Shown: in pieces, positions 2,864 to 44,625 of the stretch
Numbering within the stretch: position 1 is the stretch's first letter
Layout: each line of letters starts with the position of its first letter
Assembly: GCF_006345805.1 (NCBI RefSeq)
Contig: NW_021832528.1
Location: forward strand, 1 to 64,000
DNA length: 64,000 nucleotides
Direction of reading: 5' to 3'
From: Octopus sinensis
Lineage: Eukaryota
Notes under the pieces: model-generated
Seen by the model: only the letters and a program-made list of their open reading frames with translations
Databases searched by the model: none
What the model was told of the DNA's origin: nothing
Translations under genes and position numbers: made by a program

Positions 2864-4548
2864 ATGATACGTGTCATGCACATTTGGTGGATTATCTACT
2901 CGGTGTATGCCCTGGAAATCCTAAACGTGGAGAGTCACGTGCGGATGAGGGGGGGACTGGTGGAGGTGACAAGCACAATGGAAACAGACTCGGGAAGTGA
3001 GGGACTGTTGCACTGCATATCGCCGAAGTATGTGAGGAATGTGTCGTCGGCAATGGTATAGTGTTGTGAGAGGTCAGTTAGTGGAAGAAGGACTGAGCCC
3101 TCTGAGGGAGTGGAATGGGTGTTATGAAGTGCCAGTGCGGAATGGGAGAGTGAGGATATTGACAACATTGATGGGAGTGGGATGTGCGCGGGAGGAGGGT
3201 GTGGTCGTGACATGTAGTGTGGTGACTGAGTGGCAGTGAATGGGGTGGTCTACTCTCCCTACCCAATCAGACGACAGTCGACTGTCATTCACGGCACATT
3301 CCTCGACTATGAGAGAGGAGTGTTGGAGGGGAATACTCTGAGGGTGGACACACTGGACGTGCCCCCCTACTCCCAAGTACTCCCTCCCCTCATTGCAGGA
3401 TGACCTGTCCGTCTACTTGCTGGCCGACGACCCCCAGCTGAGCATCACACAGTACAAGCGGAGGATTGCCATATCGCAGTGGGGGACAGTGCAGGTGAGT
3501 GAAGTGGTCGAGTTGGTCGAGTCATTGGGGAGACAGGTGTCTTCGGTGGTGACGCGTGTGCCCCTGGGGAGTTCCCGGGTGTATTTCCGTGACCAAGTGG
3601 GGAATATCTCGACGAGTGCAGTGGACGGGCAGTTGGTCACTCTCACATTCCGATTCCCCCTCCGCAGTGGGTGGAACACACAATTCGAGTTTGGGTATCA
3701 ACTCCCCGCCCATTTGTGTGTGCACGTCCGTGGTTGGCCTGGTCTGTCAGTCTAGATGGACAATATGTGTTTGAACACTCCCTCATGTCCACCTTCTTCC
3801 AACACCAGTCCGTCCACAACATGCAATTGGAAATTGTGTTGCCACCTCACTCCACGGGTGTCCTCATCCACACTCTCCCTGTCCAGGCAGGCAACTATTC
3901 CGCACATCTCGATGTCCTCTCCCCTCGACCCACACTCCTTCTCACTGCCACCAATCTCAACCCTCTCCACGCACAACACATTCGCGTACTCCACATGCTC
4001 ACTCCTAGGTCGCATACACTCACTCCACTCACATGCTACTACTCAAGCCTCTCCTCCTCTCCCTCTTTGTCCTACTCCTCTTTGCTCTCCTCATCATTCT
4101 CACACGTCTCCACTTGCCCATCCTCCCTCCACACACTTCACACTCCCCCACCAATCAACTCCTCACCCTCATCCAACGAATCCTCGACATCTCACACTGC
4201 CAACCAACCATCGACGCATTCAAACGCTCTAAGGACCACTCCTCTTTTCAACACTTTCGCACACACTTCGATCGGGACATTCTCCACTTGACCAATCAGG
4301 TCATCGCCATCGAACAACACATCACCACTGGCATCGACCCTGTCCTCGACCATCTCCTCGCCAGTTCCAACAGAATGCGCGAATTGCTCGCCAAACTGAA
4401 TGTTCTCCTTCACAAAACGATGGTCAATGCGGGCAAGTTGGTGAGTGATGTCATGTCTCCCTCCGACTACTCTGCTTTCGAGATTGACAATATTGCCCAG
4501 CGCACTGATCTGGTCACTGCCATCGAGAACATATTGCACGATTTGTGA
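2864..4548 (+). CDS. RPN1: Ribophorin I (oligosaccharyltransferase subunit 1), about 6 exons
   Basis: Signal peptide; YSPYP, RRIAISQWG, YFRDQVGNISTS and RFPLRSGWNTQFEFGY motifs; TM helix LLKPLLLSLFVLLLFALLIIL; frames joined by 22-23 nt GT-AG introns. Confidence 0.9.
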
Positions 4549-4583
4549 TCTAATTCTCTAATCATTTGGTTTATTAGAATTAA

Positions 4584-5033
4584 TTAGTTGTTTTGGGGTG
4601 AGCGGACGACCCTCGTTTTGGAAAAGTATCCAACTGGAGGGGGGTGGATGCCCAACTCCTCGGACATGCACGAGTCAAAGTCCCGGCGGTATTTGCGGCA
4701 TCTACAAGTGAGTGGAATGTGCTACCGAGTTATGTCCATCAGGCTGCCCGACTCCAAGTCGATGCATTTGGCATATTCCTGGAAGGACTGCCCACAATGC
4801 TTCCTTATTTGCCCAAACAGTTCGACTCCGCACTTTGTGACGGCCACTCCTTGGGCAATGCACTTCCGGGGGTCCTTCTCTTCTTTGGAGCACAGCATGA
4901 ATTCCTTCGACTGCCGGTCACAGTATGCCCCAAAGTGGAGTGCCCCTGCTCGCAGAGAGGGCGAGGACAAGTTTATTTCCTTCGTCGCCAGTTCTTCGTC
5001 TGAGGGAAACGAGACTTGGCTAGTTATGACCAT
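4584..5033 (-). CDS. NDUFA8: NADH dehydrogenase 1 alpha subcomplex subunit 8
   Basis: Twin CX9C pattern, KEFMLCSKEEKDPRKCI, CRKYRRDFDSCM; one 24-nt intron. Confidence 0.9.
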
Positions 5034-5082
5034 CCACACACAAGAAATAAGTAATACTAATTTTTTATTCAATTTAAATTAT

Positions 5083-5786
5083 CTAATTAAGAATCCTGAT
5101 CTTCAGTGATTTCTCTTCTTCGCATGGAAGAAGAGACTCTGGACATGCCCACTCCGCAAGATGATTTGCGGAAGAAGCGTACTCTTCGTTGTCTACTTTC
5201 ACTCCATTTGTGTGTTCAATGAGCATACTCTCCAGCATCCTCTTCAGCACAACCGACTGTCCTCGTTCCTTCATTAATGGATATCATATACTTTTAAAGA
5301 ACTATGAGACAAATCCATCCCATGTCAAGACAATTGGAATTAGCTCTTGTGACATTAAGTTTCTGTAGAACTGCCTTCGGTTAAGTTCAAAACACATATT
5401 GTCAGGTGACAATTCTAAATAACTCCCCTTTTTTGACCTTCCGGTATCCATATTGCTCGAATTGTCTCTCAATTCGTCGCTGAATGATTTACTCGTTTTG
5501 TCATTATTAGTTAGTGGTATGACCAACTCGAGTTCCTTCCCAAGTTTGTCAAGCTTCGCGTTCATCATTCCGATCCACTCACTTCTTTTACTGGGTCAAT
5601 GCTCGCTGGCCGAGATGTCAGTCGGTTGATCTGCTTTCATAAATTCCCCAATCGAGGCATCTATCCCTGTCAACATGTCTTTATTAAGAAACTGATAGGG
5701 AACTTTCCTGGTCGGCCTCCGTAAAGGCCTCTGCTTGGGGGAAGGGTTGTGAGATAAGGCAGTGGGCAGTCCTTGGGCCACTTCAT
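5083..5786 (-). CDS. Probable multi-exon gene of unknown function
   Basis: Three consecutive same-strand ORF segments filling the space between NDUFA8 and KDELR; no family recognised and splice model unresolved. Confidence 0.35.
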
Positions 5787-5857
5787 CTATGGAGAGAAGA
5801 TAATAGTTTTAGAAAAGTAAAGAATAAAAGTAATAATAAATAGTGTTGACGTGTAGA

Positions 5858-6514
5858 ATGAATGTGTTCCGTTTGTTGGGCGACATGTCTCATTTGTGTG
5901 CGATGGTGGCACTGTTGTGGAAGATGTACAAGACCAAGTCGTGTCTGGGTATGTGTGTGGTGGGACGAGTAGGCGTGTCGAGGAAGACCCAAGTGCTGTA
6001 CGTGTGTGTGTTCGTGTGTCGCTACGGGAGCATGTGGTGGGTGTATGTGTCCTTGTACAACTCGGTGATGAAGGTGACGTATATCCTCACCAGTCTGGCC
6101 ACGGTGTGGGTGATGGTGTTCAAGTACGGCAGCACATTCGACAAGAGAAACGACACTTTTCCCTACGCATACTTGTTGGTCGGCTGTGCTGTCCTCGCCC
6201 TCCTCGTCACTCGGCAAGTCCGCCTGGCCTTGTGGACATTCTCCCTCATGCTCGAGTCCGTGGCCATGCTCCCCCAACTGTTCATGATCACCAAGTCGGG
6301 GGAGGCACACACCATCACCTCCCACTACATCTTCTTTATGGGCATATACAGACTATTCTACATTTTCAACTGGGTCTATCGATACTACACTCAACACTTT
6401 TTCGACATCACCAGTGTCGCCACCGGCATACTCCAAACCATCCTCTACCTTGACTTTTTCTACCTCTACGTCTACACTGTCCTCAAGGCCAGGAGTATGT
6501 TCATTCCACTCTGA
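5858..6514 (+). CDS. KDELR: ER lumen protein retaining (KDEL) receptor
   Basis: MNVFRLLGDMSHL, LWTFSLMLESVAMLPQL, TITSHYIFFMGIYRLFYIFNW, QTILYLDFFYLY; in-frame 24-nt intron at 5949-5972. Confidence 0.95.
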   Translation: MNVFRLLGDMSHLCAMVALLWKMYKTKSCLGMCVVGRVGVSRKTQVLYVCVFVCRYGSMWWVYVSLYNSVMKVTYILTSLATVWVMVFKYGSTFDKRNDTFPYAYLLVGCAVLALLVTRQVRLALWTFSLMLESVAMLPQLFMITKSGEAHTITSHYIFFMGIYRLFYIFNWVYRYYTQHFFDITSVATGILQTILYLDFFYLYVYTVLKARSMFIPL

Positions 6515-7220: not shown

Positions 7221-7833
7221 ATGTGGTTGTGGGACTATGTGAAGGACATGTTGAAACAGCTGGGTAGTGTGATAGTTAGAAGTGTAAGGACTGATGAACA
7301 AGTCGGGGGTGATACTACTACTGGGAATAGATGACGCAGGGAAGACGACTCTGTTGCAGTATCTGAAGACAGGGGCAATGCACACACACAACCCGACTCT
7401 GCATGCCAGTGAGGAGTGTGTGGTGAGGTAGATTGTGAGGAGTTGACGATGGGGGGTGTGAATATGCAGGCGTATGACCTGGGAGGACACGAGCAGGCTC
7501 GGCGAGTGTGGAAGGACTATCTGGTGACAGCGGATGCGATCGTGTTCATAGTGGATGCGGCAGAGAGGAGTCGAGTGGAGGAGGGGAGGGAGTGTCTGCA
7601 GGTTGGCCCGTCCCCCATTGCAGTCCGTGCTCACCTCCACCAACATTCCCGTGGCAGTGCTGGCTAACAAGGTGGACAAACCAAATGCAATGGGGCCTGA
7701 CGAGTTCGTGCACACCTTCGGACTGTACGGACACATGAAGGCACTCCGCCCTTTGCAAGTGTTCATGTGCTCGATAAAGAAGAGACACGGCTACCAGGAA
7801 GCATTCGCGTGGTTGGCCAACTACATTAAATGA
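7221..7833 (+). CDS. SAR1: Small GTPase Sar1 (COPII)
   Basis: GIDDAGKTT, DLGGHEQARRVWKDY, NKVD, LQVFMCSIKKRHGYQEAFAWLANYI; three introns of 22-25 nt. Confidence 0.95.
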
Positions 7834-7839
7834 TGTTAT

Positions 7840-8869
7840 TTAATAAAGCATTAGTCGTTCCAGCACGTCCGTGTTCAGTCGCAGGTACTGCAGACGGTAG
7901 GCAGCCGGGAGGCCTGTTGTCTTGCCGCATTGGTGACACGTTATGTCCCAGAACGTCGACTTGAGTTGTCCCAGCACACACCTCTCGCACATGTTGTGCA
8001 GACAAAACAGGCGCAGAGGCCGTCTGTTCACGTTGTCGAACCTGCCTGTCACACACACACCATACACACACGCACTGCCGCAACACGACAAGTACTCCGC
8101 CGACTCCAATTCACACTCCGGAATGTCCCCCCAGTTCGGCATGCTCCACGCTGATGGAAAGTAGTAGGGGATTACACTCGCACTCTCGATACTACTCAAC
8201 ACTGATTGTCTGCTCACTCTGCCCTCACCACTCACACTTACATGCTCACTCCGCTCTTCCTCCCTGTCGAGAACCCACTCCTCATTGTCGATCCACTCAC
8301 TGACCCTTCATTGGAAACCACTCCACTCCTCATTGATCCATCATTGGAAGGGCACGACTCCTTGTTGACCCTTCATTGGAACCCACTCCACTCCTCATTG
8401 ACTCCTGACTCGAGACCACTCCACTCCTCATTGACCCTCCATGGGAAATTGTAGAGGCAACACTCCTCACTGATCCGTGATTGGAGGAAGCACCACTCCG
8501 CACTGACCTTCCCTGGGAAATTGTAGAGGCAGCACTCCCCACTGATCCCCCAGAGGAGACTACACTCACTGACCCGTCATTGGAGGGGACGCCACTCCGC
8601 ACTGACCTCCCATGGGAAATTGTAGAGGCAGTACTCCTAACTCCACTTGTGAGGGATGCCCGACTGGACACACTCTGCACTCCACTGTGGACACTCCCCC
8701 TCACTCTTCTGATGATTGGAGGGGGATGAATATATTCGGTTGCTTTATAAGAGTATAGACTGTGTTTGCCCCACTCGGAGGAAGTGTCCCCATTAAGACC
8801 GTCCATTGATTGTGCGACCGGGTGGGTGGGCTTGCACACATCATTCGACTGGCTGGCCGATCTGCGCAT
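7840..8869 (-). CDS. Ser/Gly-repeat protein with C-terminal RING-HC finger
   Basis: RPLRLFCLHNMCERC...ITCHQC RING pattern; internal tandem repeats at about 8270-8640; intron GTAAGT...GCAG near 8220-8241. Confidence 0.65.
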
Positions 8870-9479: not shown

Positions 9480-11650
9480 TCAAATTAAAGCGAATAACCA
9501 ATGTGTGTTTTTGGTTATTGTCGTGCTTTAGATAAAGATTATGAGTTAGAGATGGTAAGTATACCGATCGTCAATTATTAATCGATTTGCTTTTTTATAG
9601 GTTTGTATTTTCGGATTTAGATGTGGTTGTTATTGGTTTTTAAAGTACATTTACAAGATTTCCGTATTCACTGGCATTTTTCATAAGGTTTGTGACTATG
9701 ATAACATCTTTTGAGGGAAACTAATTCAAATGACGCTAAGCTCTTTTTTATAATAATTTTACAATGTCAAGTATGAGGGTCGCCATGTCAAGTGTTTAGG
9801 TGGCGAGCGTGGGACGCGACATATATTGCTTCACTATCATATGGGAGGAAGATGTCGAAGAAGTCTGCAGGAGAGGATGTGGTGGATGTATCACTAACTT
9901 ATCTTTCCTATTCACTTTCAAAAGTATGATCTTTTATTTCAATTAACCCTTCTTTACTGTAATGTAAAAGGTTCTAGAAAAAGCCCAATTGCGGGAATAT
10001 CCTGAGTGGTGAATCTCCGGAGAGTATTTGTCAAGCTGTTGTCAGATGTAATTGTTAATCAATTGTTTGTGTAGAGAGGTTGTAGAGATTAACACTCCCA
10101 CTGAATGGATTGTTTTCTTTTAGGTTTTCTGTTTGCAATATGAATTGGAATATTTCCGCCATTTTTGGTGCCCTCAAGTTCAGGGAACAATTCCGGTCGA
10201 GAACCCAAGATATGTTTGAGGTGGAGGGGACAAGGCAAGTGTGGTATATGAGCAGTGCCAATGGAGTGCAACAATGCTGAGACTACATTTATTGTGGAGT
10301 ACATGAGTAATCTATATTTGCTGATGGGGAAGGCTGATTACCCATCATCTATATACCGTAGATGTGAGTCACCAACTCAATTTTTGTTGTTGTTGCGTTA
10401 CCCCAATCTCACATTAGATTATGAGACCAGCATCTATCAGAAACGACAGCGCCTGTCAGATTACTTCCATAAGACTTTGGGGGAGTGAATAGCAAATTTT
10501 TCGCCGAGTAGAAGACCAGGACAGTGGAATAGATGAGCATTTGAGTGTTTGCCAGCACAGAAAATGCTATAGAAGGGGAAGATCGAGTTGTCCATTTTGT
10601 GTGCATAGTGGTTTAGTTAGCGGTGATGCACTGAGCGGAAACAAGCAAGGTTTATTTGAGTGGAACGGTCAAGAAGCATTTCTGAAGGGTGAACATCTGG
10701 TAGGAATTTATTGAGGACCGAGTTAGGCGTCAGCTTGAGAATTGATGACGTTGAGATGAAATCGTGAATTCTTTTCATTGGATGTGAACAACGGTGCAGG
10801 CCATCAATTTTAGCAATGGTCGGGAATATAGAGTCGCCGACGTGTTCTACGCTGAACGACCATTTCCGTTTAGCATATTTAGAGCAGAACAAAGATGATA
10901 GGGGATTCACGATGTAAAAATTTCGAAAGTGTTGTTAATTGAGTAGTTGTTGAGTGTAGTGGTTTAAAACCATGTTGATTATGAGAAGTTAGCAAATGTT
11001 TGGATATTTGGCAAGGATTAGTCTTTCAAGGATTTTCGCTAGCCTACACAAAAGAGAGATTGGGCAGTAGGAACTTGAATGCCAACCGGTTTGTTTGGTT
11101 TGATCAATTGAATGATACATGATTTCTTACAAACAGATGGTATTTCGTTTTTTGCAACAGAATTGTTGAAAATAGACTATTGCATTGATAGCATTAGGGC
11201 AAGTCTTTTGAGATGATAGATTGAAATGTTGTGAAGGCCAATTGCAGAAAAGTTTTTTGAGTTTTTAATGCATTGCGAAACTTTATTCGCAGTAAAAGTC
11301 GGTATAGAATTATAAGGGCGTTTACTTTGTGGATGTAACTTTGGGAGAATTTTTTATAATTCCTTGAGGAATGAATTTGGCGATGAAGAGGGAATTTAGA
11401 TAATTGACTGTGTCATTCGAGCGAAAGCTGTTAATTTCGAAATCATTCAATGATTTTTCTAGAGCAAGACGGTAATTATCCAGCTCGTTTGTAATTCGTT
11501 AAACAACAGCGTTGAATTTCGATATTAGATTTAGGGCAATCTCAATAATAATCGGGTTGTGGTTAGAATTTAGGTCGTAGATGACATTCCAGAAAGTGAC
11601 AGAGGCCAGAATTGGAACACACAGCGAGTTGTCAGCAGAAAAAATTGCAT
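9480..11650 (-). mobile_element. Degraded non-LTR retrotransposon RT relic(s)
   Basis: Minus-strand SSYCPISLLCRLAKILERL (about 11020-11080) and NQHGFK (about 10965-10985); many stops; boundaries approximate. Confidence 0.6.
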
Positions 11651-11826
11651 CTCCCTTTCTTGACGGGGTTCTGGTGAGGGATTGTTGAGGAGACTAAACC
11701 ATCAAATTAGTCGAATAGCAGTGATCCCGTTGAGTTGAGAGATTAATTTTGTACCAACTCAGTTGACAAGTGTGGCTAACTTATAGTACATGGGGAAGAG
11801 GGATATAGGAAAGAAGTGTTAGTAAA

Positions 11827-12686
11827 TTATTGTTGAGGGGGAGGGCGTGGCTGCCTGAATGCGTTTTGTATTTGTTCGACAGCGGCAGGATTGGTTTCCT
11901 TCAACTGTTGAGCGAACTGTTGTCCCCTGTGAATGAAAGAGAGAGAGGACATTTGCATGAGTGCGGAGAGGTCGGGGGAGTCATTTCCCTGGAGGAGATT
12001 GCCGACCATGGACTGCATGTTGGGGTCACTCATAAGCTGGGAGGCCTACACATGAGAGAGGGGGAGACTATGCTCATTATGTCGGGAGTGTCCCCCATCT
12101 CCCTCTTGGCCAACTGGAGGTTGTCCTTGTAGGAAGTCTTGGTGTCGTCCAACTGCACGGCCATTTCGAAGGCCTGGACAGCGCGGGGGAAGCGATTGGT
12201 GGCCAAGCAGGCGGATCTGTGGTGAGAGGGGGAGAATACCCGACTCGACCGTACGCCTGAGCATAGTTGGGACTCAGTTGGACTGCCCTCTCCCCGTCGG
12301 ACAGTGCCTCCTCGTACCGTCCCAGATTATAGTAGGCCGCTGATCGGTTGCTGTAGTACGTGCTGAGTGGATTGGCCTCAATAGCCTTGGTGTAGCACTC
12401 CAATGCCTCACTCGCCCGTCCTCCCCGGATGCACTCATTCCCCCGCTCCTTCCACTCCTCCCCCTCCTTCTTCCTCTCCTCACTCACTTGCATTGTCCAA
12501 TACAACTCCTCCAGGTTGTACTTGCTGTACTCCTCCTTTCCTATCTCGAATGCTGACTCCAAACACTCCACAGCCACTGCAATCACACACACTCTTACCT
12601 TGCAGGCTCCCCGATTTGTCCTCCGATAGTGTCAATGCCTTTCCCTTCACGAATTCGATTATCGCCTTCACTAGTTCACGTTCCAT
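11827..12686 (-). CDS. SGTA: Small glutamine-rich TPR co-chaperone (SGTA/Sgt2)
   Basis: N-terminal dimerisation motif LVKAIIEFV...SLQVAVECLESAF; three TPRs (KERGNE...YYSNRSAAY...YAQAYGRVG); C-terminal MSDPNMQSM/GQQFAQQL. Confidence 0.9.
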
Positions 12687-12729
12687 TCACCACACCACCA
12701 ATATTATTTTATTTATTCATTTTAACACT

Positions 12730-13352: not shown

Positions 13353-14300
13353 ATGTGGAACTCAGAACAGGTCGAGAAGATGCGAGTGGGAATGTGTGTG
13401 GGAGTGTGTGTGGTGGAGCAGAGCAAAGACCAGGAGGGGTCAAGACGAATGCAGGAGAAAGTGGAGTGCGTGGAGGAGAGGGAGGGGATATTGAGGGAGC
13501 TGTTGGGGAGTGCGTACAGTGTAATGACGGATGTGTTCGGGAACTACGTAATGCAAAAGATGTTTGAGTGTGGGAGTAAAGAGCAGCGGGAGAGACTGGG
13601 GGAGGAAATGAAGGGACGAGTGTTGTCGCTGTCTCTGGACATGTACGGGTGTCGGGTGGTGCAGAAGGCGATCGAGAGTGGGTGGAGGGGGACGATCGAG
13701 GAGGAGTTGAGGGGACACGTGATAAGGTGTGTGCGTGACCAGAACGGGAACCACGTAATCCAAAAGTGCATAGAGTGTCTGCCCGACGCACAGTTCATCA
13801 CACAGTCCTTGAAGGGGCAAGTGTACTCTCTGGCCACACACCCGTACGGATGTCGGGTAATCCAGCGGATACTCGAACACTCGCCCCTCATCCTCGACGA
13901 ACTCGCCCAACACGCCCTCACTCTCATCCACGACCAGTACGGCAACTACGTCATCCAACACCTCATCATCCAACACCCTTCCCACATTCACACACTCCTC
14001 CCCCTCATCCAGGGACGACTCCTCCACCTGTCCATACACAAGTTCGCCAGCAATGTCATCGAAAAGTGCATCATCCACGCCTCCCCACACATCCGCGCAC
14101 GACTCATCCACGAAATACTCACTCACGGATTCTCTTCACTCCTCAAAGACCAGTACGGCAACTACGTCGTCCAGATTATGCTACAACTCGCACACCCCAC
14201 ACACCGACACATCATGCTCGACACCATCAAGGCACAACAACACGTCCTCAAACACTATACTTATGCCAAACACGTCCTCGCTCGCCTCCGCATTAGTTAG
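13353..14300 (+). CDS. PUM: Pumilio-family (PUF) RNA-binding protein, PUM-HD only, intronless ORF
   Basis: Eight PUF repeats with recognition motifs SRRMQ, NYVMQ, CRVVQ, NHVIQ, CRVIQ, NYVIQ, SNVIE, NYVVQ; ends YAKHVLARL. Confidence 0.93.
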   Translation: MWNSEQVEKMRVGMCVGVCVVEQSKDQEGSRRMQEKVECVEEREGILRELLGSAYSVMTDVFGNYVMQKMFECGSKEQRERLGEEMKGRVLSLSLDMYGCRVVQKAIESGWRGTIEEELRGHVIRCVRDQNGNHVIQKCIECLPDAQFITQSLKGQVYSLATHPYGCRVIQRILEHSPLILDELAQHALTLIHDQYGNYVIQHLIIQHPSHIHTLLPLIQGRLLHLSIHKFASNVIEKCIIHASPHIRARLIHEILTHGFSSLLKDQYGNYVVQIMLQLAHPTHRHIMLDTIKAQQHVLKHYTYAKHVLARLRIS

Positions 14301-18197: not shown

Positions 18198-18924
18198 ATG
18201 TCTGGTGACGTGGTGGCGACATTCAAGTTGGTGATACTGGGTGACGGGGGGACGGGGAAGACGACATTTGTGGGGCGGCACAAGTCAGGGGAGTTCGAGA
18301 AGAGGTACATCGGTAAGGAGTGTGTGTGATGGCAGCGACGGTGGGGGTGGAAATAACGACTCTGGTGTTTCACACGAACAGAGGGGCAATACAGTTCAAC
18401 GTGTGGGACACGGCGGGGCAGGAGAAGTTCGGAGGACTGCGGGAAGGCTACTATTTGCAAAGTGGAGTGGTCAGTGTATTGCAGGCAACGCGGCAGTGAT
18501 AATGTTCGACCTGACCTCCCGCATAAGCTACAAGAACGTGGAAAATTGGCACCGTGATTTGACGAGGGTTTGTCCGGGCATTCCCGTCGTGTTGTGCGGG
18601 AATAAGGCCGACGTGAAGGACCGGAAAGTGAAGCCGCGGATGATGAACTTTCACCGCAAAAACAACGCGGCAGTAAGTGTTGTCCCTCACTCAGTGCTTC
18701 ATCATCTCCGCCAAGAGCAACTACCAAATCGAGAAGCCCTTCCTCCTCATCATGCAACAGTTGAGTGGCGACAAACATCTCCAACTCGTCAAAGCCCCTC
18801 CTCTCCTCCCCCCACTCCTCTCCCTCGATGTCGACGCCGTACAACGCTATGAACTGGAAATGCAGGTTCTCCTTCCTCACCACCCAAGAACGCACAACAC
18901 ACTGACCTCCCGGACGACGACTAA
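18198..18924 (+). CDS. RAN: GTP-binding nuclear protein Ran
   Basis: [54 protein letters not shown], acidic tail DLPDDD; four introns of 22-23 nt. Confidence 0.95.
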
Positions 18925-19200: not shown

Positions 19201-22200
19201 ATGTTGGGAGACCTGTTGAAAGGGGAGGAGTTTTACGTGTGGGATGAAGGAGAAAAGTGTGGGAGGACGGTGAGTACAGTGCGACTGCACTCTTCGCGAA
19301 TGTTTTTGACAGTAAAGACGAATTTGGTAGACGTGGTGAGTGATTGTGAGGAGGTAAAAGTGATCGACTGTTGTCGGGTGCGTGACGTGAGGAGGAAAGA
19401 GTGGGGACTGCAAATGTGGCTGGGATGCGACGTGGTGAATTTGAGTGGGGTGAACATGGCTTGCAATTCGGAGGAGAGGATAAAAGTAGAGGGATGTGTA
19501 ACGTGGAGAAATGGTGGGGGTGTTTGTGTGGAGTGGTGTTCGACCCGGTGTTGAACAATTTGTGTCCACAGGACATAATAGTGAAGCAGTGGGTGTGGTT
19601 GTGTGAGGAGTAGGTTTATGATGCTCGAGTCGATAAGGACGGCGGAGGGAGTGGTGGACGTGCGCAAGTAAAGTAGTGTTAGGGAGAGTAGAATTATTCG
19701 GTTTTTCCACGGGAAAATGAGCGAAAAGAGCATTCGCCAAGTACTGAGCCAAGAGGAGGTGTTGAAGGTGGTGAGTGAGTGGTGAATGCAGGGGAACGAA
19801 CTGTGTGGGGAATTCGACGGTGAGCTGTGGAGGGAACTGATGGACAAGTTTGTGGACAGGCCGGACATTGAGGAAATATTCAGGAAATAGTTGGAATGAT
19901 TGGCAGATGTGCAGTTCGAATGGGAGGGAGTGGATTGATTTGGAGTCGCTGGTGGAGTTCATAAACGAGGTTGATGTGAGTGTTAAAGTGGCAGACACAG
20001 CGGGACAGTCGACTGAATACAATCCTGTTTCCCCTCAAAACACGGGAGGAGTGTCTGGAAGTGATCGAGCGATTCGAGAGTGACCCCGAGAACAGAAGAA
20101 AGGGTGAGTGAGTGTGGAGGAGTGTAGAACGGCTGGGTGTGCGTGGGTTCGGGGAGTACCTGTCGTCGAACACGGCGATATCGGCAGGGAACCAGGTGGG
20201 GAAATGTGAGATGAGTGAGCCACTGTGCCACTACTTCATAAACTCGTCGCACAACACATATTTGGTGGGGAGACAGTTCGGGGGCAAGTCCTCTGCGGAG
20301 ATATACCGAAGCATTCTGATTGCGGGGTGTCGATGCGTGGAGTTGGACTGTTGGGACGGGGACGACGAGCCGATAATCACTCACGGACTGGCTGCCTGCA
20401 CAGAAGTGTTGTTTAGAGTAGTGTGTGGGTGGACATGTTAGGACGTGGTGAAGGAGATAAGTGAGTCTGCCTTCATCACATCGGACATGCCCGTCATTCT
20501 CTCCTTCGAGAACCACTGCAGGTGGTCTATTGGGATATTCCAGTTACAAACAACAAAAGAAGATGGTCGACTACTGCATTTCCATATTTGGTGATCTGTT
20601 GCTCAAGGACTCCCTCGAGGACTACCCGTTGGAGGAGGGAGTGCCTTTGCCCTCTCCCGCCTCACTCCGACGCAAAATAATAATCAAAAACAAAAAGACA
20701 CAAAAGATAGTGGAGGACATGGACACAGAAGGTTGTCTTGTGTAGTCCACGAATAGTCAAGTATATTAGTGAAGCACAGGACGTGGCAGAAGTGATCAAG
20801 GCCTACAAACGACAACATGCCACCACCACTGTCCACCCCGAACTGTCCTCCCTCATCAATTACGTCCACTCCGTCAAGTTCGCGGGGTTCCAGGCCGCGG
20901 CGGGTGAGTACCATTCACACACTCATTAGAAAGAAACTACCATTTCCACATTTCCTCATTTGCGGAGAACGCGGGCTACGGACTGATCAAGAACAGTGCC
21001 CAGGACTTTGTACGACACAACAAGAAACAACTCACCAGAATATACCCAAAGGGGGCCCGCTTCGACTCATCCAACTACCTCCCCCAGGCAAGTCCGCCTC
21101 ACTATTTCAGTTGTTTTGGAACGCGGGCTGCCAACTGGTCGCACTCAACTGGCAGACCGCAGGCCCCTGGATGCAGTTGAATCAGGGCAGGTTCGAGTAC
21201 CACGGAAACACGGGCTACATCCTCAAACCCTTGTGCATGCGCTCGCCTGACCAAACCTTGAATCCCTTCACCGAGGCCACCATTGACGGCATCATCGCCG
21301 CCCAGTGCTCCGTCACCGTTCACTGTCCCCAATACCCTTCCCAGGTCATTTCCGGCCAGTTCCTCCACGACAGGAAAATAAGCACTTTTGTGGAGGTGGA
21401 AATGTACGGCCTCCCCACCGACACGATCCGGAAGGAGTTCAGGACCAAGGTCGTCCACTCGAATGGAATGAACCCATTCTACCGAGAGGACCCTTTCGTC
21501 TTTCGCAAAGTCAGTCCTCCTTTCACCCCAGGTCGTGTTGCCCGAGTTGGCCATCCTCAAAATCGCCGTCTACGACTGGAACACCAGCAAACTGATCGGG
21601 CAGAGGCACCTCCCCTTCGAACTGATCGAAAACGGTTAGACGGAGGAATGACCCGTAGGCTACAGGTATGTGGTGCTGAGGAGTGAGGCCAACACTCCTC
21701 TCAACCTGCCGACCCTGCTCTGCCACTTTGAACTGGGCACGTACATCCCCCACGCACACGGCGGTTGGTCTGCTCACTCACACCAGACATCGCCGACGTC
21801 CTCTCCGACCCCACTCGCTTCCTCTCCGACGCCGAAAAGGCCAGGAAGATGCTCAACTACATGGGAGTCGAGGACAACGACATCGAGGAGGACTACTATC
21901 AAGACCTCCACTTGCCCACCATCGACCAACTCAAACACGACACCGAATACATCTCTCTCCACAAACGCTCCCTCGCTGAGTTGGCCGCCATGAAGCAGTC
22001 CTTCATCAAACGCAGAATGTCCATCAGCAAGGACCAATGTCACACCTTTGTCAAAAAGATCTCCAAAGTCAAACACACTTCCCAAGAGGTCCCTCCTCTC
22101 ACCCATTTCTAGCAAATCGCCAAGATTAACGACTTACAAAACTACAAGTGGAGAGCCCTGGTGGCCCAGCAGGAGAACCAGTTCCTCCACAAAAAACAGG

Positions 22201-22660
22201 AGATGTGCACTGCACTCTTCAACAAACTCTCCAAACTCGCCCGCAAGTCACACCAACTATTCCGCAAACAACTCGACTGCAAACTCAAATGGTTTCACTC
22301 ATTTCTCATCCAGTATGCTCGACCAAGTCACTGAGAGACACGCCAAGTCCGTCCTCCACATGGACAACCTCAAACACCTCCCAAGCCTGAAAAAATACGG
22401 TTCCTCCTCTTCCTTATCTCAGACGACGTAAGGAAATGCAGGACGAACGACTCAAACGATTCATCCAAGACCGCCGACATGTCGAAAAGGAACGAGACCA
22501 CCTCGAAAAGTACTGGAATGCCGCCATGGCCTCACAGATCGACCAAATACAGAATGACTATGATCACGTACTCCACTCCTCACACACTCAGGAATGCCTC
22601 ACTCTCCGCCTCAAGAAGAATACACTCGACCTGGAAGACTGCGACCACGCATACGTCTGA
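19201..22660 (+). CDS. PLCB: Phospholipase C beta (PH-EF-X/Y-C2-coiled-coil), many micro-introns
   Basis: [45 protein letters not shown]...[24 protein letters not shown]2 [20 protein letters not shown]; one apparent homopolymer frameshift near 22390. Confidence 0.92.
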
Positions 22661-22759
22661 CTTTTTGTATTTCCATAACACTCAGTCCTCTTTACTTTGT
22701 CCATTAGTTAGTCATAGTAAACTCCCCAATAAAATTCTTGCCTGGCAACGAGGGAATGG

Positions 22760-23819
22760 AGTGTAGTGGGGTGCCCTACAACCAGGGGAGAAGACAACTG
22801 CTGATTCACTCCACATTGCAGACTGACGAGCGAATACACTTGAAATGTACACACTCCGTTATTCTGCAGATTTGAAAAGCGAACAACAAATATTGCAGCA
22901 TCTCCCGGAATTGGCGGAGGACCTCTCGTGCATTGGCCGTGAGCTTCTCAAATTGGCCGGCCCAGGACGGTGACACATCCAGTCCTCAAATCAGCAGCAA
23001 GTCAGCGCGGACTGTGCATTGCGTGAGGACATTGGAGGGACATCATTTGGAGTATCCCCAAGCAGTGGCCGTGTCTGCCACAACAGGGCACATCGCAGTC
23101 CTCGACCGATTCACTGGACGCATGTCGGTCTTGAACGGCTGTGGCATATTTCTTTATTCTGTGGGAGTCATGGAGGAGAAGGAAGGGGTGGGTGCTGTCT
23201 CCCTCACATTTCTCCACGACCAGTCTCTCCTCCTCAGCAAGAGCTGTGAGAGTGGGAACATGACTGTAATCAGCTTGATTAGTCGCAGATATACCGGGAC
23301 GGGGTAATGACTGACCAGTGGGACTACCAGCCACCTCCCCTCTGCGTTTGTGCGAGTGGAGTCAACGTGTGTGTCCTCGACCAGTCCCCCACCATTCGAA
23401 TATGCCCAGGAACTCCGCGGAATCCCCCAATTCTGTCAGTATCCATCCAGGCAGACTTGACTGAGGGACTGTTCAATCAGTTCAGTGTGTGTCTCCACTC
23501 GGACGTCGTCTATATTTGCAGCAAAACGGAGAACAAGATTAGGACAGTCGGACTGGCGGATGGTCTGGTTGGGTTCATCCGCCTCCCTGACGGGGACCTG
23601 CCCCTTCGTCCGTCGGCCATTTGTGTTGATAAGGACGGGAATGTGTTATTGGCCGACTCGTTTAATGACAGAATTTGGTGTTGTGGAGAGAATGGTTCGT
23701 TGATATTGGACAAGCGGGACGGAATTAGGGGAGTGACTGCACTGGCAATGTCCCCCCAACACCATTTAATACTCCTGGAGACGAATACCCACTCATCCCT
23801 GACAATACTCTCACTCTAG
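22760..23819 (+). CDS. NHL-repeat beta-propeller protein
   Basis: YPQAVAVSATTGHIAVLD and RPSAICVDKDGNVLLADSFNDRI; 5' end uncertain. Confidence 0.6.
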
Positions 23820-25126: not shown

Positions 25127-26150
25127 TCAGTCACGAGTAGGGGGATAGGGAGAGTAGTAGCGGAGGGGAGGGTAGGCCGTGCCGCCAATGTTGAGGGAGG
25201 CAATGTCCAGGTCGTCGTGAGGACAAAACATTTGTTGGTAGTACATCCTGGCCTGGGAAGGACTTTGGAAGAGGACAGAGGGGCGCTTCCTGTCGCGGGG
25301 GACGGCGGTGGAAATGTGGACAGAGCAGTGTTTGATGACCAATTCCCTGCCAACGAGACTGGCGGCGACTTGTGGGTCGGAGAAAGTGACGAAAACAAAA
25401 GTCCTTGGGGGGAGGGGGACGAAGACGTCGATGACTTGTCCGAACTGTGAAAAGAACTCTTCAATGTCGGCCTTGTCCAAAGTGTGGTCGACTCGGCCGA
25501 CGAAAATCCTCCTGCGCAGTTCGTGGTCGTGGGGAGTGAGTGCCCGCAGCCTGGAATTGGGGATTCTGACTTTGCAGTGCCTTCCGTCGAGTTGGTGACA
25601 GGCGGCCAGACAGGCGAGCTGGTCCTCCCACTCAGTGAAGCGGACAAAGCCATATCCCTTGGGTCGGTTGGTGTTCATGTCCTTCTTTATCTACTCCTCC
25701 CCCACAACACACAACCTCCACCATGGCCACTCGCCCGAAAGTCTCAAAGTACTCTCTCAGTTGCTGGGAAGTGTAATGCCACGGCAGTCCCAGGATTATC
25801 AAGTCACTGCACTCCCGATACTCCGCCCGTCTCTTGGACTCCTTCGCGTACACTGTGTGGTACGTCAGCTCCCCCCACCCTTCCCTCGGGGCAATCAGCA
25901 GGTCCTCCACTCGCCGCACTACTCGGAACGGGTCGCTCGTCTTTCTCCTATATTTCAGTCCAGACGCGTAGCCGAATTGCGTGTTCAGAGTCCCCACCGA
26001 CAAGTTTCCACACTTTTCCAATGGCAGTTCAATCACCTCCGAACAGTCGTCCTCACACACCTTCACAAACTCCGACAAGTTTCCACACTTTTCCAATGGC
26101 AGTTCAATCACCTCCGAACAGTCATCCTCACACACTCTCACAAACTCCAT
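25127..26150 (-). CDS. TARDBP: TDP-43 orthologue (NTD plus two RRMs)
   Basis: NTD EFVRVCEDD..VIELPLE...QFGYASGLKYR; RRM1 SDLIILGLPW...KGYGFVRF; RRM2 IFVGR...RTFVFVTF; one 25-nt intron. Confidence 0.92.
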
Positions 26151-26235
26151 TCACACAACAACCACACCACACCACTTTTATATTATTATTATTTAAGCCA
26201 AACAAAATCACCGTCTTAACCATTAACTAACACGT

Positions 26236-27420
26236 TCAGGTGATTCCGACACTTCTCAACAGTCGAGCCATCTTTTTACGATGTTCCGACCGTGACCCCA
26301 CACACTTTCTGTATGTACGGTGAATGGTTTGTGGTCCATTTCCACGATCCCCCCCATTTGCCTCTACGAGAGACTCCAGTGTTCTATGGACAATTTCCCT
26401 ATCGGTATGGTCCTTCAGTAGGTTGATAGATCTTTCTTGAATTTTTTCGATTTTTAGCTGATTCGTTGCCGCCAGGTTACAGCCCCAAGCAGCACATGCA
26501 TAGCCTATTGTTGGCTCGATATACTGCTTGTAAAGGGTCTCTACCGCTGGCGGATAAGTTCTCCCACAGTTCCAAAGGAAGGCTTTTACAAAATTGATCT
26601 TCTTTATACAGGTTGATTCTACGTGAGGTGAAAAACAGAGGAAAGTATCAAACGTTACTCCCAATATCTTCTGTGTTTTCTTTTGTGGTATTGGGACTCC
26701 ATTCAGCGTGACATCAATAGTTTTCGTCCCCATCTTCCTATTTTTCGTGAATAGAGTGACTGCTGACTTTTCGGAACATGCATGTAGTCTGTTTTCATAT
26801 AGCCATCCATATAAGTCGTCCAGTATTCTTTGTAGTCTTTCCTTCGCGTATTCGACATTTACATCCCTAGATGCGACAACTATGTCATCGGCATAGGAGA
26901 GTAGTATGTCATTATTATCCATAGGAACCGGGTGATCATTCAGAAATAAGTTGAAGAGGTCGGGGATAAAGGAGAACCCTGGGGTACCCCATTGGGCAAT
27001 AAGCGTGATCTTGAACTCTCGTTCCCGACGCACACTTTCCCACGACGTCCGCTCAAAAAATTCGCTATCCATAGCTTCATAGGTGTAGAAATATTTGTAC
27101 CAAATATCTTTTCAATTAGGATCTTCCTTGGGACGGAGTCAAACGCTTTTTCAATGTCGATAGTGCATACAATTGATTTCTCCTGCAATTTCTTTTTTTT
27201 GTGTCCTTCATTTATGAAATCTGTTAGTGTGGTAAGGAAGGAGGTCGTTGACAATCCTTCCTTGAATCCATGTTGGAATGTAGATTGTGGGAGGAAAGGG
27301 CGAATATGTTTTAGGACCAGTTTTTCCAAGATTCTTGACAACACACATATAATGGATACTGGTCTATAGGAGCCGGGGTCGTTCTTCGGTCTTCCAGGTT
27401 TTAATATTGGCCGGATTCGG
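26236..27420 (-). mobile_element. Non-LTR retrotransposon RT, frameshifted and 5'-truncated
   Basis: QHGF, DIEKAFDSV, GVPQG, YADD and ILGVTFD motifs across two overlapping ORFs. Confidence 0.9.
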
Positions 27421-27970
27421 TATAGAGTTTGTGATTAATGACGTGTTATAGATCGTGGTTGAAGCATACGCTCTTTATATTCCACTCTTCAACGAGATAT
27501 TTAGTAAAGATATCTCGGTGCCAACTCGGGAATGATGCATCAATCGGGCCATAGCTTACGCGATCGTGCGTGAGGGAGACAATGCACGAGATCTATTTGT
27601 ACTCGGCAAGACAACCTATGATGAAATCACTCAGAGGCCTGCCCCAAAGAGTGGGAGAACATTGCCGCAAGAAAGGCCGACATTTGTGAGCAATAGGGCA
27701 AGACTCCCCCCTTAGTGCGTACTTTACTTTGTCGGGAACGAACTGCCAAATGGGAACTCAACGAGTTGAAGCGTGTCCTGGCAGAGAGGGAGGAGCTGAT
27801 TCACGTTTATCAGAAGAAACTCTCAACTCATGTCAGCGCAGGCGAGAGAACAATTTGAGTTTAATCGCAGGTTGTCCAGCCTGATTGTAGACAAGGCGTG
27901 TGATCAGACAGATGGTTTCTTGGCCACGTAAATTCGCAGGTTAGTCAGGAGTATTTATTGAAACAACAAG

Positions 27971-29336
27971 TCAAATGACTGATCGAATGAGAGCAAGCAG
28001 TTCACTGTCAGGAGACAGCATGTCGGCAATCCTAGTCAACTCTGCCTGCAATTGAAGACACTTGTCCCTCCTGGAATCGGCAGTGAGGTCGACCCCGATG
28101 GGACTGAGAGGAGCGAGGTTGTCTCGAATGAGTGGGCCGAAGTGTGTGAGGACGAGGGTGACAGTGTGGTGGAGTGTGTGGTCGGGGGAGGAGAGGAGTG
28201 GGAGGACAGTGAGAGCCAAGTCGAGAGTCCAGAAGTGAGAGGGGAGGACTCCAAGGAAGTGTGTGAGTGCAGTGTAGTCGTGTGCAAGAGTGAGAATGGC
28301 CCCCTTGTGTGAGTGAGTGAATTACCGGAATATTGCGAGTGCGGCACATGTGTGAGGCCAGTTGGAGGTGTGCGAGTGTGGTGGTGAGAATGGGGAGGAT
28401 GGTGTTGTGCCAGGTGGTGAGTGTGTGGCCTTGGAAGGCGGCGACGAGGACTCGGTGTTGGTCACAAAAGAGGTCAGCAACATTGTGGATGGGGAGTGAG
28501 GAGTGGTGTGTGTAGGGTTCCCAGGACACCAATTTGAGTGAGTGGTTGGTGGCACAGTACATGGAAGTGTGGTGGCCTGTGAATCGAATAGCCCTATGAG
28601 TGAGGAGAGGGGAGTACTTGACAGGGAGTGCGTCGAGTGGACTGCGATCGACGACTTGCATCAGGTCCAAGTCGAGCAAGGCCATAGCCCGATCAGCGCC
28701 GGCGGAAGAGAGGAGGAGCATGGAGGGGTGGAATTGGAGAGCAGTGACTGCGTCGTTGTGCGTCCTCAAGTCGTGGAGGACCCTCCCGGCGGCGACATCC
28801 CAGAGTGTGATGTGCCCGTTCTGACACCCGGCGGCCACCCACCGTCCGTCGGGGGAGAACTGTACGTGAAGTGGGGGGGACTGTGAGTGGTAGGTGGAGT
28901 GGCACTTGCTCTCCCGACTGTCCCACAACTCAGTCAACAACACCCTCACACCTTAATTCGCGAGTCGACTCCTCCTGACACGAGGAATGTGTCCCCCGGG
29001 TGCCAGTCCACACTCAGCACACCACTCGAATGACCCATTAACTTGCACACCACTTAATTTGACTGGTTGGGTGATACATCTCCCTGTCCTCACGTCCCAT
29101 TCCTTTATCACACCCGACTGCGACCCTCCCACTGCCATGTTGTTCTCGTTGTTAAATGTCACTGCTGTCACTGACTCGCACATTCCCTCCAGCCTCATCA
29201 CACTCTCCTTCTCCCCCACTTTCCACAACTCGACTTGTCCTTCCTCCCCTCCCGTTATTACCATTTCCCCCCATTTCTTCCCTATCGACATGCACCGGAT
29301 TGTTGTACACGACCTTAATGCACCACCTGAATACAT
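27971..29336 (-). CDS. KATNB1: Katanin p80 WD40 subunit B1
   Basis: WD40 repeats TGGEEGQVELW, GSQSGVIKEWDV, QFSPDGRWVA, QFHPSMLLLSSAGADR; con80 tail FGPLIRDNLAPLSPIGVDLTADSRRDKC. Confidence 0.88.
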
Positions 29337-44461: not shown

Positions 44462-44625
44462 ACGAGTGGATATACATATACCAGTCGGGGAGTGTTGTGT
44501 GGTGACAGGCAGGGCAGACCATTCAGTTGTCCCACCCATTGTGGACATATCTGTGGGGGATGACTATATATTTTGTTGTTTCCCATTTACTTATTATTAA
44601 TTATTTAAATAGACTACAACTAGGC

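What the first reader, a model, noticed from the sequence alone, without database searches (positions are those of the whole stretch)
2864..29336. Gene-scale G-to-C skew inversion repeated in gene after gene
Genes begin strongly G/T-rich and end strongly C/A-rich. Hand counts: Pumilio 13381-13440 has G30/C5 while 13981-14040 has G5/C30. For minus-strand KATNB1, the plus strand has G34/C3 at 28141-28200 and G5/C29 at 29161-29220. The same pattern is visible in RPN1, KDELR, SGTA, TOCA, RAN, PLCB and TDP-43. It is strand-symmetric, scales with gene length (0.65-3.5 kb) and resets at AT-rich spacers, for example between tandem RAN and PLCB. Ordinary transcription-coupled bias gives one sign across a gene, not a mid-gene flip. 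Inference: a bidirectional process starts at the spacers and meets mid-gene. Candidates are gene-sized replicons with fixed origins, programmed excision or amplification of gene-sized units, convergent transcription, or polarised repair or conversion. This is the best candidate for an undescribed system in the window.
Basis: partly seen in the sequence, partly recalled or inferred. Interest (0 to 1): 0.92.

Follow-up and report, generated by a model that had tools for sequence, protein, structure and literature searches.

The report
Mid-gene G-to-C flip island, dicyemid-like parasite
In one 27-kb gene cluster of a tiny-intron animal parasite, silent sites are mostly G in the first part of nearly every gene and mostly C in the rest, strongly enough to reshape the proteins, which looks most like the scar of repeated DNA-break repair centred inside genes, although that mechanism is inferred and not shown.

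Summary
The flip is real. All four hand counts are exact. Fourfold-degenerate sites of 12 island genes go from GC skew +0.75 to about -0.7; introns and codon positions 1-2 follow. Pumilio's amino-acid shift is 9 SD beyond 120 homologues.

- The A/T component runs purine to pyrimidine, not G/T to C/A.
- It is regional. 112 other gene models show a weak opposite gradient, the sign published for fungi.
- Arms spill over gene borders and not every spacer resets.

The contig belongs to a compact co-biont genome, probably a dicyemid, inside a 2.7-Gb mollusc-like assembly.

Best reading (0.45): double-strand-break repair centred 0.3-0.7 kb inside genes, favouring G on the 3'-overhang strand. It rests on the polarity, arms that fade 0.75-1 kb from the switch, raised GC, and a displaced gene copy that loses G. 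Whether the bias is mutation or conversion is unresolved. Rivals are transcription-phase bias (0.25) and spacer origins (0.12). Fold-back selection and gene-sized circles got no support. Verdict: an extreme, sign-reversed, localised variant of a known but unexplained pattern.

The parts
1..860 (+). 169-bp satellite array at the contig start; the island begins 2 kb from it
   Evidence: same satellite at or near the ends of many compact-genome contigs, also internal on some
2876..4548 (+). RPN1 (ribophorin I); neutral skew +0.40 to -0.69, broad switch about 3550-3640
4584..5033 (-). CX9C protein (NDUFA8-like by eye); weak flip, p=0.06
5858..6514 (+). KDEL receptor; +0.39 to -0.71, switch about 6130
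7221..7833 (+). SAR1 (Arf family); carries the G arm of a unit shared with the convergent neighbour (raw G/C 113/45 then 94/77)
7848..8732 (-). Convergent gene with a Cys-rich zinc-finger-like end and internal tandem repeats (bounds by eye, no Pfam hit); C-rich on + throughout, no flip of its own
10380..11755 (-). Old LINE fragment beside the SGTA 3' end; its G skew (+0.29) is intrinsic; used as a neutral control
11827..12686 (-). SGTA-like TPR gene; +0.63 to -0.85 on the sense strand, switch about 12330
13353..14300 (+). Pumilio; +0.85 to -0.76, switch about 13750-13850; amino-acid composition shifted; broken displaced copy on C12461
15228..16635 (-). TOCA family (HR1, SH3); +0.46 to -0.80, switch about 16040-16100
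18198..18923 (+). RAN (Ras family; stop position by eye, the model ran to 18997); +0.74 to -0.25, switch about 18600
19201..22660 (+). Phospholipase C beta; G arm to about 20400, mixed zone to about 21200, C arm running into the next gene to about 23000
22756..23819 (+). NHL-repeat gene inside the island without a flip (-0.19, +0.05)
25127..26150 (-). TDP-43; +0.69 to -0.80, switch about 25620-25680
26174..27470 (-). Young LINE fragment (reverse transcriptase), 92-98% identical to about 40 copies on other compact contigs; ties the island to that genome
27971..29333 (-).
29348..30008 (-). Rho-like Ras-family GTPase; moderate flip (+0.33 to -0.29); its C arm continues into the next gene to about 30700, the island's edge

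Best explanation
The island is a chromosomal zone where germ-line double-strand breaks are repaired very often, at sites about 0.3-0.7 kb inside genes (several sites in long genes). Resection leaves the top strand single-stranded left of the break and the bottom strand right of it (known). Repair then favours G on that 3'-overhang strand. This could happen by translesion C insertion opposite damaged bases, or by heteroduplex mismatches being resolved in favour of the G-bearing strand. Over time each tract of about 0.8-1 kb becomes G-rich left and C-rich right of the centre, with raised GC, overriding selection on the protein. SHOWN: the neutral-site flip; G gained at the cost of A, T and C on the inward-reading strand; arm geometry; regional confinement; loss of G in a displaced copy. 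INFERRED: the breaks, their mid-gene position, their meiotic origin and the repair chemistry.
For: Polarity matches the human hot-spot footprint: ssDNA lies left of the break on the forward strand, and C>G and A>G peak 700-800 bp off centre (PMC7615360, passages and figure legends). Here, 3' arm skew is 0.42, 0.72, 0.91, 0.91, 0.92, 0.51, 0.47, -0.42 in 150-bp steps from the switch (9 genes, PLCB and RHO left out). Arms cross gene borders in three places, ending about 1 kb from the nearest switch for SAR1 and RHO. Neutral GC is 0.57-0.75 in the island against a median of 0.36 in 60 other models, and it keeps falling with distance along C8999 outside the island (rho -0.65, n=21). 44 models next to the same satellite on 10 other contigs have higher GC (0.44 vs 0.36, p=0.003) and a skew change shifted towards the island sign (+0.03 vs -0.13, p=0.003). 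Displaced Pumilio/TOCA copy: at 262 neutral sites there are 6 window-G/copy-other differences and 0 of the reverse, where about 5 are expected if the island lost G at the copy's rate (P=0.005). The old LINE has 12 AT>GC against 14 GC>AT private changes within 480 bp of SGTA, but 4 against 37 further away (p=0.001). G-C exchanges are 212 of 843 differences from relative X9, against 36 of 338 and 5 of 79 in LINE copies elsewhere. Compact contigs encode SPO11, MSH2, MSH6, two more MutS genes and polymerase kappa.
Against: No break, recombination or polymorphism-frequency data exist here. A fixed fraction of gene length predicts the switch at least as well as a fixed distance (residual 112 vs 128 bp without PLCB, 107 vs 315 bp with it), which suits sources at gene ends. 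For RPN1, TOCA and KATNB1 the fade coincides with the approach to the stop codon; only the 69-kb gene separates the two, and its 3' end is uncertain. The LINE part nearest SGTA shows no polarity (7 changes to G, 7 to C) and still lost G 12 times, which fits neither strong G protection nor G gain; its near/far contrast against other copies is only p=0.08. Eight other high-GC genes do not flip, and outside the island GC and flip size are uncorrelated (rho 0.09, n=104). Twenty kb beside the satellite on 10 other contigs holds no comparable island. REV1 was not seen among the compact-genome Y-family matches (a lower bound). The X9 spectrum includes repeats and has no outside-island control. Default hot spots in species without PRDM9 lie at promoters, not mid-gene (recalled).
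Confidence: 0.45

Rival explanations
1. Transcription-phase bias with reversed sign. Sense transcription (R-loops or exposed non-template strand) makes the 5' part G-rich; antisense transcription from the 3' end, or late-elongation repair factors, make the rest C-rich. This is the McLean-Tirosh idea, amplified in one germ-line-active chromatin domain.
For: Skew is at full strength at the start codon, and the switch is 5'-shifted and scales with gene length. The effect is largely gene-bound and the LINE is spared. In the convergent SAR1/zinc-finger pair each gene is G-rich from its own start. Gene-linked flips that reach fourfold sites and amino acids are published (PMC3315797, parts 1-2 of 4 read).
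Against: Chaperonin and other housekeeping genes elsewhere in this genome lean the opposite way (10 of 112 significant). NHL inside the island has no G arm. Clustering by position, GC gradients along the contig and spill-over past gene ends are not predicted. A pure mutation bias does not easily explain the 0 G losses in the island lineage.
Confidence: 0.25
2. Gene-sized replicons: efficient origins in AT-rich spacers fire both ways, forks meet mid-gene, and the lagging-strand template becomes G-rich.
For: The sign at spacers (C left, G right) is the bacterial and human origin sign (PMC2817419, passages). The switch lies near a fixed fraction of gene length, and the mixed zone is broad in PLCB.
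Against: An origin at SGTA's 3' spacer should give a C arm in the adjacent LINE, but it shows G>C 4, C>G 2 and background-like decay among 83 changes. Skew weakens inside spacers. Not all spacers reset. Replication alone does not explain raised GC or G retention. The rest of the genome has equally AT-rich spacers and the opposite lean.
Confidence: 0.12
3. Breaks lie at spacers and the chemistry is reversed, for example unrepaired C:C mismatches in heteroduplex DNA, or G misincorporation in the newly made strand.
For: Promoter and terminator hot spots are the default without PRDM9, and C:C mismatches are poorly repaired (both recalled). The LINE gains GC near the spacer.
Against: GC is no higher at gene ends than inside (fourfold sites 0.64 within 75 bp of an end, 0.75 beyond 600 bp). 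Skew is weaker in spacers. G is gained over A and T as well as over C.
Confidence: 0.08
4. Selection on RNA or single-stranded DNA structure: G-rich 5' halves pair with C-rich 3' halves.
For: G retention looks like a fixation bias. Reverse-complement 8-mers shared between halves exceed local shuffles in 5 of 7 genes.
Against: A gene's left arm matches its own right arm no better than other genes' arms (0.83 vs 0.74, mean rank 0.58, 10 units). Keeping the gradient gives no folding gain over global shuffles in 4 of 4 genes. Introns carry the skew. The genes are functionally unrelated neighbours.
Confidence: 0.06
5. Programmed excision or amplification of gene-sized units, as reported for dicyemid somatic cells, leaves the bias.
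For: Chromatin elimination, circles and selective amplification are reported in Dicyema (PMC6543705, passages). Ciliate gene-sized chromosomes carry end-linked purine skews (PMC5863220, passages).
Against: Somatic events are not inherited. No gene-sized back-joint appears among the 15 of 36 joints shown or the 6 rows of table 5c (contigs drop rare forms). No shared terminal repeat marks unit ends among the repeats shown. Ciliate skews are confined to about 40 nt.
Confidence: 0.03

Closest known systems
Opposite GC skews at 5' and 3' gene ends in unicellular fungi (McLean & Tirosh 2011, PMC3315797; parts 1-2 of 4 read)
   Same: Gene-linked sign change of GC skew that reaches fourfold sites, UTRs and amino-acid use; cause unexplained. 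The non-island genes here have this same sign, weakly.
   Different: The island has the reverse sign (G first, C last), near-saturating amplitude, an A/T flip, raised GC and confinement to one 27-kb cluster, and it is in an animal. The fungal pattern is genome-wide with flat AT skew.
Strand-asymmetric mutagenesis around human meiotic break hot spots (Hinch et al. 2023, PMC7615360; passages and figure legends)
   Same: Same left/right polarity for C>G and A>G on resected single strands; off-centre peaks at several hundred bp; 1-2 kb scale.
   Different: There it is a small excess of rare variants at PRDM9 sites. Here it is fixed composition, repeated gene after gene, with T also depleted and no break data.
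Bidirectional asymmetries at CpG islands and replication origins (Polak & Arndt 2009, PMC2817419; passages)
   Same: C-to-G sign change at a source, together with GC-biased conversion.
   Different: Their range is hundreds of kb, acts in intergenic DNA and has small amplitude. Here the scale is 1 kb, and adjacent transposon DNA is spared.
Subtelomeric purine skew of ciliate gene-sized chromosomes (PMC5863220; passages)
   Same: Strand-symmetric bias read inward from both ends of gene-sized units.
   Different: About 40 nt long and on real nanochromosomes. No such molecules are shown here.
GC-biased gene conversion (established knowledge; described in PMC2817419)
   Same: Raised GC, apparent fixation bias, override of protein-level selection, regional gradient.
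   Different: Ordinary gBGC is strand-symmetric. Here only G rises on a given strand, while C relative to A+T stays near background.

Membership tests
Fungal-type 5'/3' opposite GC skew | Skew changes sign along genes, including fourfold sites and amino-acid use | tested here: met
Fungal-type 5'/3' opposite GC skew | Coding strand C-biased at the 5' end and G-biased at the 3' end | tested here: not met
   Island is reversed; met only weakly by non-island genes
Fungal-type 5'/3' opposite GC skew | Genome-wide, with flat AT skew | tested here: not met
   Regional; AT skew goes +0.54 to -0.30
Break-hot-spot strand-asymmetry footprint | G gain left and C gain right of a centre | tested here: met
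Break-hot-spot strand-asymmetry footprint | Off-centre peaks fading at about 1-2 kb regardless of gene borders | tested here: inconclusive
   Fade at 750-1050 bp and three spill-overs, but confounded with gene ends; the LINE shows no polarity
Break-hot-spot strand-asymmetry footprint | Mapped breaks or crossovers at the centre | not testable with these tools
   No such data
Break-hot-spot strand-asymmetry footprint | SPO11, mismatch-repair and translesion machinery present | tested here: inconclusive
   SPO11, MSH2, MSH6 and Pol kappa found; REV1 not seen, and the REV1_C and UDG searches were blank even for the host
GC-biased gene conversion | Fixation bias of G/C over A/T | tested here: inconclusive
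   The displaced copy supports it; the LINE shows more gains but no fewer losses; no allele frequencies
GC-biased gene conversion | Strand symmetry (G and C rise together on a strand) | tested here: not met
   Fourfold sites in the arms are about G 0.63, C 0.05-0.09
Replication-origin skew domains | C-to-G step at the source acting on all flanking DNA, genic or not | tested here: not met
   Old LINE beside the spacer has no C gain; several spacers do not reset
Replication-origin skew domains | Fork direction reverses at the switches | not testable with these tools
   Needs OK-seq
Dicyemida (identity of the organism) | Animal with introns mostly under 30 nt | tested here: met
   Peak 22-28 nt with lengths of 17-110 allowed; median 25 of 947 with a 19-35 cap; 21-23 nt gaps in spliced contigs. 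Only dicyemids and myxobolids are reported with such introns (PMC13644364, PMC6543705; passages)
Dicyemida (identity of the organism) | Lives in a cephalopod; ciliated | tested here: inconclusive
   A host Pumilio exon is 89% identical to Lottia's, tied with an unnamed protein and 1-2 points above an insect and a mussel protein; 2.72-Gb assembly with low-numbered contigs tens of Mb long; a DRC1/CCDC65-type domain at E=3e-5, under the cut-off. That myxozoans lack cilia is recalled
Dicyemida (identity of the organism) | Phylogenetic placement with named dicyemid sequences | not tested
   No named dicyemid protein among the listed hits (best identity 56% and 54%)

The most novel reading that the evidence does not exclude
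A strand-specific form of biased gene conversion: in heteroduplex DNA formed at gene-body break sites, G on the 3'-overhang strand wins over A, T and C. It is strong enough to remodel the two halves of conserved proteins in opposite directions. The same chemistry with breaks at gene ends would give the weak opposite gradient seen in the rest of this genome and in fungi, so base composition alone would map where breaks fall.
Probability: 0.25. Interest if true: 0.85.

Novelty: new variant of a known kind. Interest (0 to 1): 0.66.

Why it matters
Gene-linked skew flips have been described in fungi without a cause. This locus offers an unusually clean natural test. The amplitude is near saturation, both signs occur in one genome, and there are internal controls (a displaced gene copy, transposons, a non-flipping neighbour). 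Relatives at about 89-99% identity exist in public runs. If break repair is the cause, it shows a non-adaptive, strand-specific drive that can push conserved proteins 4-9 SD out of their family's composition, and it would let recombination sites be read from sequence in an unculturable animal. It also warns that the 2.7-Gb assembly holds much of a parasite genome, and that such genes can mislead codon-usage and phylogenetic analyses.

Tried and rejected
1. Assembly or sequencing artefact: rejected; short-read contigs reproduce the sequence and relatives align in order.
2. Island from a different organism than the other compact contigs: unlikely; it shares LINE copies at 92-98%, a displaced gene copy and similar intron sizes.
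3. C12461 as a syntenic haplotype for substitution spectra: only two pieces (1.2 and 0.5 kb) align.
4. Satellite adjacency as a sufficient cause: no island in 20 kb beside the satellite on 10 of 10 contigs; only a weak shift. The array is also internal on some contigs, so it is not shown to be subtelomeric.
5. Young LINE as a clock: 11 private changes, uninformative.
6. G-rich stretch at 9.4-11.7 kb as an extended arm: rejected for the 10.4-11.75 kb part, where the skew is intrinsic to the LINE in all 12 other copies.
7. Fold-back selection: not supported. No long inverted repeat at 9 flip sites tested (one 24-bp palindrome), and no boundary motif among the repeats shown.
8. Loss of mismatch repair: rejected; MSH2 and MSH6 are present.
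9. REV1_C and UDG family searches were blank even for the host, so they say nothing. The HhH-GPD search gave three matches on compact contigs; the one examined is NTH1 (a lower bound).
10. No RNA holder was listed as such; runs X3 and X5 behave as spliced contigs.
11. Switch-width fits were too loose to rank the two switch types.
12. Literature. Searches 'dicyemid + skew' (listing only), 'GC skew/switch/middle of genes', 'opposite GC skews' and two on conversion and skew showed no report of this polarity in an animal; subscription journals are not covered. A recalled mouse hot-spot paper on skew that flips at hot-spot centres (Smagulova 2011) was not held and is not used as evidence. Noto 2003 and Awata 2006 were seen only as cited in PMC6543705. 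No supplements were read.

Full report
WHAT THE WINDOW IS. The window is the start of contig C8999 (274,785 bases) in a 2.72-Gb, 13,516-contig assembly. Its Pumilio has a 97%-identical twin on another small contig and a long-intron counterpart at about 56% on a large scaffold. Chaperonin and kinase searches likewise split into compact genes on small contigs and long-intron genes on low-numbered large scaffolds. The window therefore belongs to a compact co-biont genome inside a host assembly. Introns peak at 22-28 nt (median 25 of 947), and spliced contigs show 21-23 nt gaps. Best protein hits are animals at 50-56%. Among animals only dicyemids and myxobolid myxozoans are reported with such introns (PMC13644364 and PMC6543705, passages). 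The host Pumilio exon is 89% identical to a mollusc's, with an insect protein one point behind, and the window holds a DRC1/CCDC65-like domain under the Pfam cut-off. No phylogeny was run.

THE OBSERVATION. The four hand counts are exact and far outside shuffles. I wrote a self-trained gene finder whose intron sums match spliced contigs for four genes; gene identities were checked by Pfam on exon frames. In the 12 island genes, fourfold-site GC skew runs +0.75, +0.71, +0.65, +0.17, -0.16, -0.50, -0.68, -0.69, -0.73, -0.53 by decile. Intron interiors run from about +0.6 to -0.7, codon position 1 from +0.53 to about -0.15, and position 2 from +0.31 to -0.42. Eleven of 12 genes have the same sign and 10 of 12 reach p<0.01. 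The protein effect is large. Pumilio's N-minus-C index is 0.68 against 0.02 +/- 0.07 in 120 homologues (maximum 0.25); its differences from the family majority go towards G-rich codons 43:15 in the N arm and towards C-rich codons 52:21 in the C arm. KDEL receptor gives 0.23 against -0.02 +/- 0.065 in 109 homologues.

CORRECTIONS. A/T skew at fourfold sites goes +0.54 to -0.30, so the strand read inward from each end is purine-rich, not keto-rich. On that strand fourfold sites are about G 0.63, A 0.17, T 0.12, C 0.07. In introns C relative to A+T is about 0.21, against 0.24 in other genes (computed). G has risen at the cost of all three other bases, most strongly next to A or T. Units are not strictly genes. 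SAR1 and its convergent neighbour share one flip; RHO's C arm runs to about 30,700; PLCB's runs into NHL, which has no flip; yet the 3'-3' junction of Pumilio and TOCA resets. The switch sits at 0.41 of CDS span, 258-724 bp from the start codon except in PLCB (1,449). Skew is +0.84 in the first 120 bp but 0.49 in the last 120 bp.

HOW GENERAL. I modelled genes in 700,915 bases from the window and other compact contigs (156 models with score >=18), chosen around chaperonin, kinase and satellite matches, so the sample is not random. After dropping the island, models with fewer than 3 introns, the displaced copy and tandem-repeat models, 112 remain. They show a weak opposite gradient (fourfold skew -0.22 to about 0; 65 negative, 45 positive; p=0.001). 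Ten of 112 are significantly reversed and 2 have the island sign, against 0.56 expected each. A model-free scan of 820,797 bases finds 14 strong G-to-C flips: 7 in the island, one gene at C8999:69.4 kb with full strength, the displaced copy, and 5 in lower-GC DNA. Twenty further kinase stretches gave one moderate island-sign gene and three of opposite sign at p<0.01. Neutral GC falls along C8999 (rho -0.77, n=33; -0.65, n=21 outside the island). The contig starts with a 169-bp satellite found at many contig ends. Twenty kb beside it on 10 other contigs holds no island, but its 44 genes have higher GC and a small shift towards the island sign.

INTERNAL CONTROLS. (a) A broken copy of Pumilio and the 3' part of TOCA lies on C12461. 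On the G strand, 262 neutral sites give 6 window-G/copy-other and 0 reverse differences; codon positions 1-2 give 9 G changes at 266 G sites (sites before 13,420 and one allele-like site, 15,428, were left out). If the island lost G at the copy's rate, about 5 reverse differences are expected (P=0.005). This points to G being protected in place, not to hypermutation, though a lower mutation rate in active genes would also do it. (b) An old LINE abutting SGTA has the same +0.29 skew as 12 other copies, and its 83 private changes are AT-biased like theirs (C>G 2, G>C 4). Within 480 bp of the gene, AT>GC:GC>AT is 12:14 against 4:37 further out, but without polarity and without fewer G losses. This argues against any process that spreads from spacers over all DNA, and it is only partly what the best model predicts. 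(c) A young LINE was uninformative. (d) Against relative X9, G-C exchanges are 212 of 843 differences; X5 gives 45 of 294, X1 25 of 282 and X3 5 of 37. LINE copies elsewhere give 36 of 338 and 5 of 79. There is no outside-island control for X9.

MECHANISM. Any model must make the inward-reading strand G-rich. Three geometries expose that strand: resection from a break in mid-gene, lagging-strand templates from spacer origins, and sense plus antisense transcription from the ends. In humans resected DNA lies left of the break on the forward strand and C>G and A>G peak 700-800 bp off centre, attributed to translesion polymerases (PMC7615360). That is the island's polarity for a mid-gene centre. 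The 3' arms here peak 300-750 bp from the switch and fade by about 1 kb, skew weakens in spacers, GC is not higher at gene ends, and arms ignore some gene borders. With the regional GC gradient and the presence of SPO11, MSH2, MSH6 and two further MutS genes (MSH4/5-like by eye), I put break repair centred inside genes first (0.45). Against it stand the length scaling of the switch, the confounding of fade with gene ends, the unpolarised LINE, and high-GC genes that do not flip. Whether G is gained by mutation or wins in heteroduplex repair is open; controls (a) and (b) disagree. Transcription-phase bias (0.25), spacer origins (0.12), spacer breaks with reversed chemistry (0.08), structure selection (0.06) and programmed excision (0.03) follow.

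COMPARISON AND NOVELTY. The closest description is McLean & Tirosh 2011 (PMC3315797; the lead came from earlier scan notes): fungal genes are C-biased at the 5' end and G-biased at the 3' end, cause unknown. The bulk of this genome shares that sign weakly; the island reverses it, nearly saturates it, adds an A/T flip and confines it to one cluster. It works like a hot-spot strand-asymmetry footprint combined with GC-biased conversion, but membership in either is not shown: no breaks were mapped, and ordinary conversion is strand-symmetric. My searches showed no report of this polarity in an animal or of skew in dicyemid nuclear genes; subscription journals are not covered. Verdict: real, striking and testable; a new variant of a known, unexplained kind; interest 0.66.

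Noticed in passing
G000 small contigs (e.g. C8999, C12461, C6303, C8702, C1794, C8459): Much of a compact, tiny-intron parasite genome lies among the unplaced contigs of this large animal assembly, with duplicated haplotype-like contigs (C9737/C6088, C12467/C8901).
   Followed up: partly
window:14338-15212: About 0.85 kb between Pumilio and TOCA is bounded by 37-bp direct repeats and is much shorter in the C12461 copy. Run X1 has a joint from 15177 back to 14363 (depth 41.8), so a tandem or circular form exists somewhere.
   Followed up: partly
window:1-860: The 169-bp satellite mostly keeps one orientation relative to contig ends (+ at starts, - at ends; exceptions C3122, C9002, C13496) and is also internal on some contigs; its chromosomal role is unknown.
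   Followed up: partly
G000:C8999:67908-70623 (L017): An isolated full-strength flip gene 40 kb from the island; its head-to-head neighbour (ACBD3-like by eye) alternates C, G, C within one gene, with a C-to-G switch at an AT-rich intron.
   Followed up: partly
L025, L028, L040, L036, L071: Chaperonin and eIF3e-like housekeeping genes show the reverse gradient (C/A-rich 5', G/T-rich 3'), the fungal sign.
   Followed up: partly
window:13737-13778 and 18396-18459 (loose ends): Runs X3 and X5 hold AT-rich Pumilio homologue pieces, and X3 a RAN one, possibly from a second co-infecting species that lacks the skew; only 30-base pieces were seen.
   Followed up: no
window:25997-26148: A 75-bp tandem duplication lies in the 5' coding part of TDP-43, and a 95%-identical piece of this region lies on C12461 near 118.1 kb.
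   Followed up: no
window:8296-8642: Internal 33-99 bp tandem repeats in the zinc-finger-like gene differ in copy number between runs.
   Followed up: no
window:21180-21237: The PLCB frame breaks here in the assembly; an X1 contig over this gene has 6 gap letters, which suggests consensus indel errors.
   Followed up: no
L115-L116 (C8459, about 263.7-268.2 kb): A 405-bp tandem array of 11 copies, strongly C/A-rich on one strand.
   Followed up: no
L125, L129: Polymerase kappa with few introns on C12463 and a degenerate second copy on C8750; three NTH1-like matches; four MutS genes against five in the host, so MSH3 may be absent.
   Followed up: partly
window:31826-34071, 37600-40462, 43896-46779, 54220-57233: Outside the island: a DRC1/CCDC65-like gene, synaptobrevin and PRMT5 with little skew, an integrase-core fragment under the Pfam cut-off, and a BED/DUF659 transposase.
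   Followed up: partly
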